A stretch of DNA of 64,000 nucleotides, taken from contig NC_043002.1 in the NCBI RefSeq assembly GCF_006345805.1, positions 65,286,001 to 65,350,000 on the forward strand, in the 5' to 3' direction. The position numbers were made by a program, and so were the translations under genes. Origin of the DNA: Octopus sinensis. Lineage: Eukaryota. Positions 249-55,309 of this stretch are shown piece after piece; positions within the stretch are counted from its first letter, which is position 1; each line of letters opens with the position of its first letter. A model generated the notes under the pieces. It saw only the letters and a program-made list of their open reading frames with translations. It ran no database searches and was not told the DNA's origin.

Positions 249-1047
249 ATACATTATATAAAAGGGCTTAGTAAAATAAATTACTTTGCCGCATACTGAA
301 CTCATTAGAAATAGCAGCTAAAAAAAAACTTTTTTTTAAACTATTTCTAATACTTAAAGAAAACCTCTCTCATATAGTGCTTGCTCAATTCAACTCACGA
401 AAGTATGGGGGTAGAGACATTAAAAAATCAAATGCAAAGGTTATTTGAGAACGTACGTTTCAAGATTAGTCAAACTCGACACTTCTATCATCAGCTCAGA
501 ACTCCCTGGTTTGGATTTGAAAACACTGAAAGTGGGAGCATACCCTTTCGGCTTCTTATCGCTTCTGAAGATCTGCTCGAAACTAACAGTGCCAGCAAAC
601 TCAAAAAGCAAGCGAAGAATTTCTGCTCTCCCCTTTCCACCAGCGTGGGTTAAAATCAGTAAACACTATGCTTTTTTCGGTAAAATCCGAGGCATTATAT
701 AGAGAGAGATCAATTATAATTTCAACAATTGAGGGTAAAATTAATTAATTAATCAATTTCACCAAGTATTCAGTATGCAAAGGGACCATTTAAGGCGAAT
801 TCAAATTATTACATTATATAAAAGGGCTTAGTAAAATAAATTACTTTGCCGCATACTGAACTCATTAGAAATAGCAGCTAAAAAAAACTTTTTTAAAACT
901 ATTTCTAATACTTAAAGAAAACCTCTCTCATATAGTGCTTGCTCAATTCAACTCACGAAAGTATGGGGGTAGAGACATTAAAAAATCAAATGCAAAGGTT
1001 ATTTGAGAACGTACGTTTCAAGATTAGTCAAACTCGACACTTCTATC
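249..1047 (-). mobile_element. Non-coding ~560-bp tandem repeat (family H1, ~1.4 units) carrying a hammerhead; PLE pLTR/retrozyme-like
   Basis: ACATTATATAAAAGGGCTTAG... at 251 recurs at 811; same family at 54003-55168; HHR on the minus strand. Confidence 0.8.
446..498 (-). ncRNA. Type-I hammerhead ribozyme (family H1)
   Basis: Minus: UGAG-CUGAUGA-[u aga..guc/gac..ucu u]-GAAA-CGUACG-UU-CUCA; palindromic stem III. Confidence 0.8.
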
Positions 1048-1328
1048 GCGGAGGCACATAGCCTAGTGTTAAGAGCAGCGGACGCGCGGTCAAGGGATCG
1101 CGGGTTCGAATCTCAGACTCGGCGATATGTGTGTTTATGAGCGAAACACCTAAGCTCCACGCGGCTCCAGCAGAAGGTAATGGCGTACTTCTGCTGACTC
1201 TTTCGCCAAAACTTGCTCTCATTTTTTCCTCCTGCACCTTGCAGCTCACCTGCAACGGACCGGTGTCCCGTCAAGGTGCGGAACCTATATGCCAAGGCAA
1301 CCGGAAAACCCGCTCTATGAGCCGTCTT
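1048..1328 (+). mobile_element. tRNA-derived SINE, family B
   Basis: A box TAGCCTAGTG, B box GGTTCGAATC, body shared with 46483, 50603 and 57170; (CA)n tail. Confidence 0.85.
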
Positions 1329-1440
1329 ACACACACACACACACACACACACACGCACACACCACATATATATATATTATATAATATATATATATATATT
1401 ATATTATATATACATATATATTTATTTATACACTCACACA

Positions 1441-1690
1441 CATGGTGCGGTGAATAAACTCTCGTCCAAATTACATTACAGAAAAAGGAAAATAACACTG
1501 ACAACGCAATACGTAATATTACATAAGAATATCTTGAAGCACTATATAGTAAATTTATGCAACAACATCGCGATCGGCTTCAACCACGGCCTCCAGACAA
1601 CTTCGGGATCTCCTGCAAATTTTCTGGACGGTCTCCATTTTTAAATTCGTGAATGCTGCCATAATCATTCCCTTCACTCATCTTTGGTTT
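1441..1690 (-). mobile_element. Tc1/mariner transposase C-terminal remnant
   Basis: Minus reads MIMAAFTNLKMETVQKICRRSRSCLEAVVEA, resembling Tc1-like C-termini. Confidence 0.6.
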
Positions 1691-1952
1691 TAGAAGTTTT
1701 GTTAGTCTCTCTCAGAACTGTACCCCATACATAATAATCAAGAGGGATGCAGCCTGGGTTGTAAGGTGGCCAGATGTTAGGGGTGATGTGGTCGTAGACT
1801 ATTTGTCTGGTGTAACAGCAGAAACGTTAACATTTCAGACAGAATAACATGTGTTATTAAATTAGGGTTTCTTAACTACTAAGTTAAAACCAAGGCAATT
1901 TTCCTCCTATATCCTTTGTATGTAGCTAATGTAAAGTAGTTAATATAAAGAG

Positions 1953-2150
1953 AGATGCATGGCCTAATGCTTTCCGGTGTTGCACTCATGATCTCAATAT
2001 TGTGATTTTGATTCCCGGGCCGAGTGCTATATTGTCTTCTTGAGCAAAACACTTCATTTCGCCTTGCTCCAGTTCACTCAGCTGTAAATCAAGTTCCAGT
2101 AATAGCTGCGATGTAAACCAATCGATGGTCCGGTGTCCCGTTCAGATGGG
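1953..2150 (+). mobile_element. Degenerate tRNA-head SINE with CORE-like segment
   Basis: TGGCCTAATG...TCTTGAGCAAAACACTTCATTTCGCCTTGCTCCAG. Confidence 0.6.
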
Positions 2151-52004: not shown

Positions 52005-52393
52005 TAGTGTAAGAGCAAACGCCCCCCGTCCAATGAACGGTGCTGAGTTGTCAAACATTTAAACTAAATTTTCTCAAAACAACTTGTTCGACTGTCCCAT
52101 AAGCCTCTCCTTTGAGAAACATTGATTTAACCTAAATTTGAGACACTAGCAAAATGAGAAATAAAGATAGACTTTTTTCTATTCCTTGAAAAATGATTTT
52201 ACAAATATACGTTCCCACGGTTTTATCGATCGCATTCTCACCTGGAATCTATTTTTGTAATTTTTTCAAGACTTATACACGCCCTGATACCGTCGGTATC
52301 TACATATCAAATTTGAGCACAATCGGATGTAGGGTGCCCGAAAACCTAGAAGACACACACAGAGACAGACTGAACGGATTTTATATAATAGAT
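52005..52393 (+). mobile_element. Possible non-autonomous Helentron/HINE-like element
   Basis: 5' small hairpin CCGT..ACGG, subterminal CA/GACA repeat, end TTTTATATAATAGAT. Confidence 0.4.
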
Positions 52394-54193
52394 ATTTTTA
52401 AGCATCATTTTATATTTATATTATCTTACTCCTTTTTATATTCTTACTTTTATATCCTATTCTATTCCACTTCTTTCTTTTTTTTTTCTCTGCCTATACA
52501 GACGAGTGTGTGAAAGGCTACGGGAGTAAACCTCTACAGAAAATCCAAAGGGATGGCCCCTAACGAAGTTGATGGGTAGGACTGAGCCAAACCATCTTCT
52601 GACAGCTCCTTGTGTACAGATAAAAATTCCGTATGTCGATTCCTCATATGGCGGATAGGGGAAAGGCCTTCAAATATGAAGATTAGCTGTGAATAGAGAA
52701 ATAAAGTCCTGGACCAAACATACCTCGAGGAGTAAACCTCAATGATAAAATATACCAGCCTTGTATTGCAGGAGGTCAGAATGCGGTAAATGCAAGCCTC
52801 AACAAACTCATTCATTGGATCTACGCAATTTCTGCTTCTCTGAAGGAGATTCTCTCTCTATTATTGAAGAAATGTAATCTACAGGATAATTATACGACCC
52901 CTGTCAGTATTAAGTTATTGAAGGCCAGATAATAATAAATAATAACTTCCTATCTCCCTCGCGTCACCCAAGCTGGGCTTATGGCATTCCATGAGCACTG
53001 TCTCTTCGCCTGACTGAAAAGGTTTTTAAAAATTCAGTTTTATGACATTATTATTTTTTTTTTTTTGCATTTCGTGCGAGATGGAGAGACGTAGAGCTAA
53101 GCTACAACAATCTCACCACTGCCCGGAGATTCAAAGCACGTTTTTGATGAAAAGATCATTCAAGTTGCTTTCGTTGGAGGAAGATGGTCACAAGATCAAG
53201 CGTTGAATTTGGTTAGTTATCAGCGAAAGTTTGCTTAATAGGGTCACATTACGTTATGAATGATAATTTAGCCAAAATTTACGAGTGCGTTAGTCCAATG
53301 AATGTCATGTGGAATACGAACTTCTAATTCAGTTGTTTCTTTTTTGCAGTCACATTATGCACACACTGTGCTCTCACAGTGTTAGACCTTGGAGCAGTCA
53401 ATGTCCATAATGTCACACTGATATGTGGATAATACGCGAAATTGTTGTGCATCCTCTCACATAACAATCAACCGTTTAGTTTCTGGTGTACTAAATACAG
53501 AGAATTTCACGTTTGAAACTAGTAACTGCAACAGTGTGTTGTACCAGCAGGAAAGATAAATGTCAGTGGGAATATGAGAAATGTAAGTGTTAGTACATCT
53601 TCCTAAATGATCACAAGCTCTTGATAAAAGAGCAATCGAGTTTTTAGCAATAATCGCAACATGGATGTTGACTCGCTTTTACGCTGTATTTACTAGATTA
53701 AAACGAAGATCATCTAGATTCTATTTAGTGGTATCACACATACTCACACAACACAGACACACTTACACAAACAGACACACACACATACATTCACACTTAC
53801 AAACACATACACAAACACACACATACATGCATATACATATATAAACAGCATGTTAAAGCGTTGTTTATTTTTGAGTGTTTATTATATTGTCTTTTCCAAA
53901 TCCACTACAAAACGAAATTGAGTATGTTATACAGATATACTTGAGGAGTAACAGATTATATAAACATGTGTATGTATAAATATATATATATATGTATATA
54001 TATTATATAAAAAGGGCTTAGTAAAATAAATTACTTTGCCGCATACTGAACTCATTAGAAATAGCAGCTAAAAAACTTTTTTAAAGCTATTTCTAATACT
54101 TAAAGAAAATCTCTCTCATATATAGTGTTTGCTTAATTCAACTCACAAAAGTTTGGGGGTAAGGACATCGAAAAATCAAATGCTAAGGTTATT

Positions 54194-54246
54194 TGAGAAC
54201 GTACGTTTCAAGATTAGTCAAAAACAACACTTCTATCATCAGCTCA
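54194..54246 (-). ncRNA. Hammerhead ribozyme H1
   Basis: UGAG-CUGAUGA..GAAA-CGUACG-UU-CUCA. Confidence 0.78.
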
Positions 54247-54824
54247 GAAATTCCTTGGTTTGGATTTGGAAACACTGAAAATAAGAACATACCCTTTCGA
54301 AGATCTGCTCGTAACTAACAGTGCCAACAAATTCAAAATAAGCAAGCGAAGAATCTCTGTTCTCCCCTTTCCACCAGCGTGGGTTAAAATCATCAAACAC
54401 TATGCTTACTATGCTTTTCGTTAAGTATTAGAAATAGCTTTAAAAAAGTTTTTTAGCTGCTATTTCTAATGAGTTCAGTATGCGGCAAAGTAATTTATTT
54501 TACTAAGCCCTTTTATATAATGTAATAATTTGAATTCGCCTTGAATGGTCCCTTTGCATACTGAACACTTGGTGAAATTGATTAATAATTAATTAATTTT
54601 GCCCTCAATTGTTGAAATTATAATTAATCTCCCTCTGATTAATGCTTCGGATTTTACCGAAATAAGCATAGTGTTTGATGATTTTAACCCACGCTGGTGG
54701 AAAGGGGAGAACAGAGATTCTTCGCTTGCTTATTTTGAATTTGTTGGCACTGTTAGTTACGAGCAGATCTTCGAAAGGGTATGTTCTTATTTTCAGTGTT
54801 TCCAAATCCAAACCAAGGAATTTC

Positions 54825-54877
54825 TGAGCTGATGATAGAAGTGTTGTTTTTGACTAATCTTGAAACGTACGTTCTCA
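54825..54877 (+). ncRNA. Hammerhead ribozyme H1 (inverted copy)
   Basis: UGAG-CUGAUGA..GAAA-CGUACG-UU-CUCA. Confidence 0.78.
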
Positions 54878-55309
54878 AATAACCTTAGCATTTGATTTTT
54901 CGATGTCCTTACCCCCAAACTTTTGTGAGTTGAATTAAGCAAACACTATATATGAGAGAGATTTTCTTTAAGTATTAGAAATAGCTTAAAAAAGTTTTTT
55001 AGCTGCTATTTCTAATGAGTTCAGTATGCGGCAAAGTAATTTATTTTACTAAGCCCTTTTTATATAATGTAATAATTTGAATTCGCCTTGAATGGTCCCT
55101 TTGCATACTGAACACTTGGTGAAATTGATTAATAATTAATTAATTTTGCCCTCAATTGTTGAAATTATATGTATATATATATATATATATATATATATAT
55201 ATAGATGTTTATATATGTATTCATGTATGTATATCTATATATATGTATGCATGTATATATACATATATATATATATATGTCTGTGTGTGTGTGTGTGTGT
55301 GTGTGTGTA

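What the first reader, a model, noticed from the sequence alone, without database searches (positions are those of the whole stretch)
249..55168. Second, unrelated HHR repeat family (H1, ~560 bp) at two loci 53 kb apart with similar architecture
Seen: 249-1047 (tandem) and 54003-55168 (forward plus inverted tandem) are diverged relatives. One has a ~19-bp indel near 552-570 and a changed stem-II loop (GUCGAGUUUGAC vs GUUGUUUUUGAC). Stem I, the core and the CGUACG palindromic stem III are invariant. Both loci abut (TA)n. Inference: selection preserves the ribozyme in a dispersed non-coding retroelement, and the loci are independent insertions rather than a satellite.
Basis: partly seen in the sequence, partly recalled or inferred. 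Interest (0 to 1): 0.75.

Follow-up and report, generated by a model that had tools for sequence, protein, structure and literature searches.

The report
Penelope-footprinted hammerhead retrozyme family
These two loci are copies of a young, protein-free jumping repeat with thousands of copies that carries a hammerhead (likely self-cutting) RNA motif; its insertions almost always end at two fixed sites inside a conserved folded segment, so it is likely copied into the genome by a borrowed Penelope-type reverse transcriptase.

Summary
Both loci belong to one dispersed family of 545-566-nt units carrying a type I hammerhead motif: 2,097 exact motif hits and 7,815 hits for a 3' motif genome-wide, controls 0. 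The two loci represent two young subfamilies, about 89% alike.

It is a non-LTR retrozyme with a Penelope-like (PLE) footprint:
- 145 of 151 arm 3' ends fall at two sites about 95 nt apart, mostly running into (TA)n.
- 73 of 75 classifiable inverted insertions have one end of each kind.

- Core, cut triplet and stem III vary across subfamilies, while pairing is kept.
- The most conserved part is a covarying 165-nt domain holding both end sites, not the ribozyme.
- That domain is shared with two other repeat families.
- Neither window locus has two complete same-strand hammerheads.

Cleavage, expression and circles were not shown, and no coding partner was found in 159 PLE loci. This scan had already reported the same two-ended pattern for other retrozyme families of this genome, but found no look-alike of this one. 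Verdict: new member of a known kind.

The parts
250..1047 (-). Locus A: 1.43 head-to-tail units of subfamily A (558 nt); 3' end at site S1 running into (TA)n, 5' end truncated inside the second hammerhead core
446..498 (-). Complete type I hammerhead motif: stem I UGAG/CUCA, CUGAUGA, U-U at 10.1/11.1, GAAA, palindrome ACGUACGU; predicted cut GUU between 450 and 449
   Evidence: cleavage not tested
1004..1047 (-). Second hammerhead copy, lacking the first five core letters and the 5' strand of stem I
   Evidence: arm starts at unit nt 519; core starts at 514
710..919 (-). Conserved folded 3' domain of the full unit, containing end sites S1 (about 810-820) and S2 (about 715-723) and the 95-nt tail between them
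1..249 (.). (TA)n-rich target at the 3' end of locus A
54000..54408 (-). Locus B left arm (subfamily B), 0.75 unit; 3' end at S1 into TA-rich DNA; hammerhead at 54246-54194, predicted cut 54198/54197
54409..54414 (.). Head-to-head junction with a few extra letters that repeat the neighbouring sequence
54415..55169 (+). Locus B right arm, 1.37 units; hammerhead at 54825-54877, predicted cut after 54873; 3' end at S2 (with tail) into (TA)n; folded domain at 54417-54626 and 54964-55170
55170..55278 (.). (TA)n target at the S2 end of locus B

Best explanation
This is a non-coding, dispersed tandem repeat with a type I hammerhead motif (a non-LTR retrozyme) whose RNA is likely copied into (TA)n microsatellites by the reverse transcriptase-endonuclease of an autonomous Penelope-like element acting in trans. 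Shown: thousands of copies, several young subfamilies, two fixed 3' ends S1 and S2 about 95 nt apart, random 5' ends, head-to-head arms with one end of each kind, and a covarying folded domain that contains both end sites. Inferred: the enzyme binds that domain and cuts both strands of a TA run; each freed DNA end primes on a UAUA-like site (one at S1, one at S2); both cDNAs run for up to about 15 units on a template without a 5' stop at the ribozyme cut and are joined at their broken-off ends. The template is most likely a ligated monomer circle made by weak, probably dimer-dependent self-cleavage, with uncut multimers used at least sometimes. The two window copies could not release a monomer by themselves.
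For: Copy number and spread. Ends: 145 of 151 arms end at S1 or S2; 142 of 151 run into TA-rich DNA; 53 of 55 classifiable inverted insertions are S1+S2 (p 9e-14; 61 pairs, 6 with an unclassified end); 20 of 20 in an independent set (22 pairs, 2 unclassified). Either arm may be the longer (25 vs 28) and lengths are uncorrelated. 5' ends are not enriched at the cut (1 of 151 vs 2.7 expected). The junction across the cut site is intact in nearly all copies counted. Units within an array differ less than between loci (A 1.1% vs 3.0%, B 0.4% vs 1.0%), and only 5 of 91 in-register differences are mirrored in both arms. Domain: 97.7% of cells paired, 5 pairs with two-sided changes, 0 of 500 shuffles as high. 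The whole unit folds better than 25 shuffles as a circle (z -3.7 to -4.8). TA-inserted PLEs with open 784-aa RT/GIY-YIG frames and their own short tail exist in the genome. Tail, inverted copies, two RT start sites and AT-rich cutting are PLE hallmarks (PMC8557442, PMC11167929, PMC3846280).
Against: No coding PLE sharing the unit's ends was found among 159 PLE-bearing loci; all hits were passenger insertions. No cleavage, expression or circle was shown. The hammerhead fold is far from the minimum-energy fold in A and B (-2.4 vs -10.9 and -0.1 vs -7.3 kcal/mol; as dimers -19.4 vs -32.2 and -14.8 vs -23.6). Against a pure monomer circle: 7 of 11 rare variants shared by both arms are in register from the 3' ends (23% expected; p 0.005 per variant, 0.056 per locus, four from L097). 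Long-read assembly errors and polishing can blur within-array differences. The shuffle control does not remove relatedness.
Confidence: 0.82

Rival explanations
1. Same PLE enzyme, but the template is always an uncut linear multimer read through from a long array; the hammerhead is a nearly silent passenger and no circle is involved.
For: End-register variants shared by both arms in L097, L062, L064, L073, L086. Weak predicted fold. A U4C subfamily amplified well. In the anole PLE, uncut RNA is the main substrate in vitro and ribozyme mutants still insert (PMC11167929). Eight of nine frog retrozyme dimers did not cleave (10.64898/2026.07.22.740005).
Against: Many distinct haplotypes are each uniform across a whole array, including variants private to one locus and fixed in all its copies, which needs repeated single-unit bottlenecks; 86 of 91 in-register differences are not mirrored; truncation alone would shorten arrays each round; hammerhead pairing is kept across subfamilies 79% alike.
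Confidence: 0.3
2. The units are solo terminal repeats (pLTRs) or 5'-truncated tails of a coding PLE that I did not sample, so the family is not independent.
For: Retrozymes match PLE pLTRs in frogs (10.64898/2026.07.22.740005); the genome holds many PLE families and only 159 loci were screened.
Against: Arms of up to about 15 units consist of the unit alone. PLE protein matches in the 153 retrozyme loci lie in the flanks, not in phase with the unit. No long frame is kept across subfamilies.
Confidence: 0.1
3. The inverted arms arise by fold-back self-priming on an antisense template (the model of PMC3846280) or by DNA-level palindrome formation after insertion.
For: Head-to-head orientation; 2 of 11 shared variants are centre-symmetric.
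Against: The two 5' ends fall at unrelated unit positions, either arm may be longer, arm lengths are uncorrelated, and each outer end is a precise S1 or S2; centre-symmetric variants are not above expectation (2 vs 2.2).
Confidence: 0.08
4. A satellite spread by DNA recombination, with a chance hammerhead-like motif.
For: Tandem arrays; no Rfam hammerhead hit; the monomer fold is not the most stable.
Against: Short arrays dispersed over all large chromosomes with fixed 3' and random 5' ends; variation at N7 with pairing kept.
Confidence: 0.02

Closest known systems
Metazoan non-LTR retrozymes (coral, mussel, axolotl: PMC7229834; vertebrate survey: bioRxiv 10.64898/2026.07.22.740005)
   Same: Non-coding tandem units, one type I hammerhead per unit, low GC, thousands of copies, strongly folded unit, no LTR; PLEs proposed as the mobiliser.
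   Different: Unit 545-566 nt against 170-400 nt in the invertebrates tested (51-972 nt in the later survey). The passages I read describe no two fixed 3' ends, head-to-head arms, (TA)n targeting or conserved end domain. Expression and circles are shown there, not here; pLTR homology is shown in frogs, not found here.
Endonuclease-bearing Penelope-like elements (Neptune, Hydra, Naiad, Poseidon; PMC8557442, PMC3846280, PMC11167929)
   Same: 5' truncation, partial tandems, inverted 5'-truncated copy, a tail at one end only, microsatellite bias, two RT start sites downstream of the hammerhead, palindromic stem III.
   Different: No RT or endonuclease frame; tail about 95 nt instead of 30-40; both end sites here resemble the TA target, whereas the anole start sites are not homologous to the cut DNA.
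PLE-type dimeric type I hammerheads (PMC4209133) and core variants (PMC3088659)
   Same: Short stem I, 1-2 bp stem III with a palindromic loop, predicted to act as a dimer; U10.1-U11.1 and U4C are known natural variants.
   Different: Lacks the usual G10.1-C11.1 pair; stem II is interrupted by a 3x3 loop; activity untested.

Membership tests
non-LTR retrozyme | Tandem non-coding units, each with a type I hammerhead | tested here: met
non-LTR retrozyme | No LTR-type structure; dispersed in many copies | tested here: met
non-LTR retrozyme | At least two consecutive complete hammerheads on one strand (the 'active' definition of the 2026 preprint) | tested here: met
   met by many loci of the family; not met by either window locus
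non-LTR retrozyme | Self-cleavage of the transcript | not testable with these tools
   only folding energies
non-LTR retrozyme | Expression as linear and circular monomer RNA | tested here: inconclusive
   no holder on record as RNA; contigs only
type I hammerhead ribozyme | Core CUGANGA / GAAA / NUH with three stems | tested here: met
   U4C in subfamily C; 10.1-11.1 unpaired in 9 of 12 haplotypes
type I hammerhead ribozyme | Match to Rfam hammerhead models | tested here: not met
   none at gathering score in the window or at E up to 1 in four loci; that the models represent minimal stem III variants poorly is my recollection
type I hammerhead ribozyme | Covariation above chance in the stems | tested here: inconclusive
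   3 two-sided pairs (19 of 500 shuffles as high); score 105 of 500
autonomous Penelope-like element | Open frame with RT and GIY-YIG endonuclease | tested here: not met
PLE-mobilised non-autonomous element | Tail at one end, inverted 5'-truncated copy, microsatellite target | tested here: met
PLE-mobilised non-autonomous element | Terminal sequence shared with a coding PLE | tested here: inconclusive
   none in 159 PLE-bearing loci; the genome could not be screened whole

The most novel reading that the evidence does not exclude
A superfamily of cephalopod retrozymes is defined less by its ribozyme than by a covarying 165-nt RNA domain that presents two single-stranded UAUA templates to a dimeric, telomerase-related Penelope enzyme, one per cut DNA end, so that one RNA circle is read around from both ends of a break. 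The domain would be a portable loading and priming signal for PLE reverse transcriptase, unrelated in sequence to the enzyme's own terminal repeat.
Probability: 0.4. Interest if true: 0.72.

Novelty: new member of a known kind. Interest (0 to 1): 0.5.

Why it matters
How animal retrozymes are copied, and how Penelope elements make their tail and inverted copies, are open questions. This family supplies thousands of young insertions with two exact end sites, a strict one-of-each rule and a folded domain supported by compensatory changes. That gives a defined RNA substrate for the existing in vitro PLE assay and a way to tell circle from multimer templates. Natural ribozyme variants (U4C, GUU vs GUA, 8- vs 10-nt palindrome) with different copy numbers allow a test of whether cleavage rate matters for spread.

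Tried and rejected
Expression: no RNA holder listed. Four runs guessed as RNA were laid as contigs and cover the unit, but they may be DNA, so I use them neither way.

GST capture: one frame of subfamily A resembles the start of glutathione S-transferases (PDB E 0.02; 46% over 46 aa to a host exon). There is no Pfam hit, no DNA-level source among the listed host exons, and the frame is not kept in other subfamilies. Treated as chance or an old remnant.

Run-off at the cut site: seemed present in per-unit blast tables but was an artefact of splitting at the unit border.

First conservation test (0 of 23 hammerhead sites variable vs 57 of 406, p 0.034): biased, since 40 loci were chosen by the hammerhead pattern; replaced by loci chosen by the S1 motif.

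Partner search: an apparent match in a PLE 3' UTR proved to be an old two-ended insertion carried as a passenger. Neptune-type, second-clade, GIY-YIG-selected and Poseidon-like loci gave no shared end.

Rfam: only miRNA-model hits to microsatellites and palindromes.

Rows dropped: L076 (two separate insertions); L076 and L110; four partly covered loci and duplicate loci; homopolymer-adjacent sites were masked throughout.

Print searches found no paper on a cephalopod retrozyme. The supplement of PMC7229834 could not be read and those of the bioRxiv preprint are closed; either could list such a family.
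Full report
OBSERVATION. The two loci are relatives at 86.5-92% identity, and a motif scan finds the same type I hammerhead at - 494, - 54242 and + 54829. Locus A (250-1047) is 1.43 units of 558 nt on the minus strand; its second hammerhead is cut off inside the core. Locus B is a head-to-head pair, 54000-54408 (-) and 54415-55169 (+), period 546. The loop change and an indel of 17-18 nt near 550-567 are real. B has TA runs on both sides, A only at its 3' end. Neither locus has two complete hammerheads on one strand. Rfam finds no hammerhead.

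THE FAMILY. The genome is 2.72 Gb. A cluster of GST-like exons, which I recall as cephalopod lens S-crystallins, points to a coleoid; earlier notes call it octopus. The exact hammerhead pattern has 2,097 hits and a 21-nt 3' motif 7,815, both with 0 in the reversed control. Scaling from my count of 46 loci in the first 100 hits gives very roughly 3,600 loci. Each window locus has many 97-99% copies on other chromosomes (40 candidates scored of 1,412 and 988). So A and B are two separately amplified subfamilies. Loci picked by the 3' motif show further subfamilies down to 77-79% identity.

ENDS. Numbering from the predicted cut, 145 of 151 arms in 86 loci end at S1 (about nt 195) or S2 (about nt 292), and 142 of 151 run into TA-rich DNA. 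5' ends are spread over the unit, with 1 of 151 within 5 nt of the cut against 2.7 expected. Of 61 inverted pairs, 55 had both ends classifiable and 53 were S1+S2 (p 9e-14). An independent set gave 20 of 20 (22 pairs). Either arm can be the longer (25 vs 28), lengths are uncorrelated, arms reach 8.7 kb, and junctions mostly show a few letters of overlap or a short insert. This is the PLE footprint: a tail often at one end only and an inverted 5'-truncated copy (PMC8557442, passages and a supplement search; PMC3846280, passages), with the tail bounded by two RT start sites downstream of the hammerhead (PMC11167929, parts 1-2 of 4 read). The tail here is about 95 nt, against 30-40 in those papers.

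THE RIBOZYME. Across 12 haplotypes N7 is U, C or A, the triplet GUU or GUA, and stem III is ACGUACGU or ACGUUGACGU, self-complementary in both forms. 95% of cells pair, and three pairs change on both sides, but the covariation score is matched by 105 of 500 shuffles. Position 10.1-11.1 is unpaired in 9 of 12, and subfamily C has U4C. Both are known natural variants, and U4C lowers activity in vitro (PMC3088659, passages). The hammerhead fold is well above the minimum-energy fold for A and B, as monomer and as dimer; for subfamily E the best two-strand fold has the double-hammerhead pairing. PLE-type hammerheads of this build cleave weakly and as dimers (PMC4209133, parts 1-2 of 4). I infer a real but weak, probably dimer-dependent ribozyme; cleavage is untested.

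THE CONSERVED DOMAIN. Over seven full units, nt 130-198 and 199-296 are 84% and 87% invariant, the hammerhead boxes 82% and 71%, and the rest 44-49%. This segment folds into a long stem that encloses S1 in a single-stranded loop, followed by a hairpin just before S2. A 599-nt hammerhead repeat (L364, E 2e-25 over most of the unit) and a third family (1,928 candidate places) carry the same domain. With them, 97.7% of cells pair and 5 of 31 pairs change on both sides; 0 of 500 shuffles reach the score, though that control ignores relatedness. One-sided changes are mostly G-U on the hammerhead strand, which fits an RNA fold of that strand. That the domain binds the enzyme is inference.

TEMPLATE. 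Units inside an array differ less than units of different loci (A 1.1% vs 3.0%; B 0.4% vs 1.0%). Some arrays show no difference at all, and a few variants private to one locus are fixed in all its copies. Only 5 of 91 differences at in-register positions are mirrored in both arms. With the intact cut-site junctions and no run-off at the cut, this fits a monomer circle, as proposed for retrozymes (PMC7229834, abstract and sections 13, 14, 17). Against it, 7 of 11 rare variants shared by both arms are in register from the 3' ends (23% expected), four of them in L097. Uncut multimers, or arm-to-arm conversion, therefore occur at least sometimes. Assembly errors limit this test.

PARTNER. The genome has TA-inserted PLEs with open 784-aa RT/GIY-YIG frames, inverted ends and a short tail, and several other PLE families. 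None of 159 PLE-bearing loci shares the unit's ends; every hit was a passenger insertion. The partner is unnamed. In frogs, retrozymes do match PLE terminal repeats (bioRxiv 10.64898/2026.07.22.740005, parts 1-3 of 5 read).

NOVELTY. It is filed as a non-LTR retrozyme on the sequence features tested; cleavage and circles are untested. It works like a PLE insertion but is no autonomous PLE. Seven searches found no paper on a cephalopod family; PMC5680766 has no mention (term search only); two supplements were unseen. This scan has already noted the same two-ended pattern in other retrozyme families of this genome (after my own tallies), while no look-alike of this family was listed. What this locus adds is the size of the tally, the natural ribozyme variants and the shared covarying domain. 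Interest 0.5.

Noticed in passing
window 40432-42560: The 487-bp family has its own type I hammerhead with a long stem II and the same TA-flanked, head-to-head build. It shares a 12-mer with this family upstream of its first end site but gives no profile hit.
   Followed up: partly
L364 7-1160 (G000:C10, 61.06 Mb): A 599-nt hammerhead repeat homologous to this family over most of the unit, with the same stem III palindrome and a long stem II; perhaps the 600-nt family of earlier notes, not checked.
   Followed up: partly
L302 2600-2880, L319, L337, L348: A third related family (1,928 candidate places), mostly short two-ended copies with the same folded domain and a longer tail; no hammerhead was seen in the short copies.
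   Followed up: partly
L266, L269, L270, L272: An old two-ended insertion of this family rides in the TA-rich 3' UTR of a coding PLE family and was amplified with it.
   Followed up: yes
L151 5385-5445; L287, L296, L300-L302: Coding PLE families whose terminal hammerhead has the U3-A8 core variant.
   Followed up: partly
window 1048-1330: A tRNA-like SINE begins exactly at the 5' end of locus A; whether it inserted into the element is unknown.
   Followed up: no
window 441-665 (-): A 74-aa frame resembling the GST N-terminus; not kept in other subfamilies and rejected.
   Followed up: yes
window 6039-6422, 11644-12954, 20978-23466, 29627-30019: Fragments of two PLE families (by genome searches; no Pfam hit), a LINE reverse transcriptase and a mariner-type transposase.
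   Followed up: partly
window about 26256-26330: A weak hit to the domain profile (E 0.002-0.01), possibly an old fragment or an AT-rich hairpin.
   Followed up: no
L211, L212, L216, L223, L231: A well-amplified subfamily carries the U4C core change together with stem I changes, a natural test of how much cleavage matters.
   Followed up: partly
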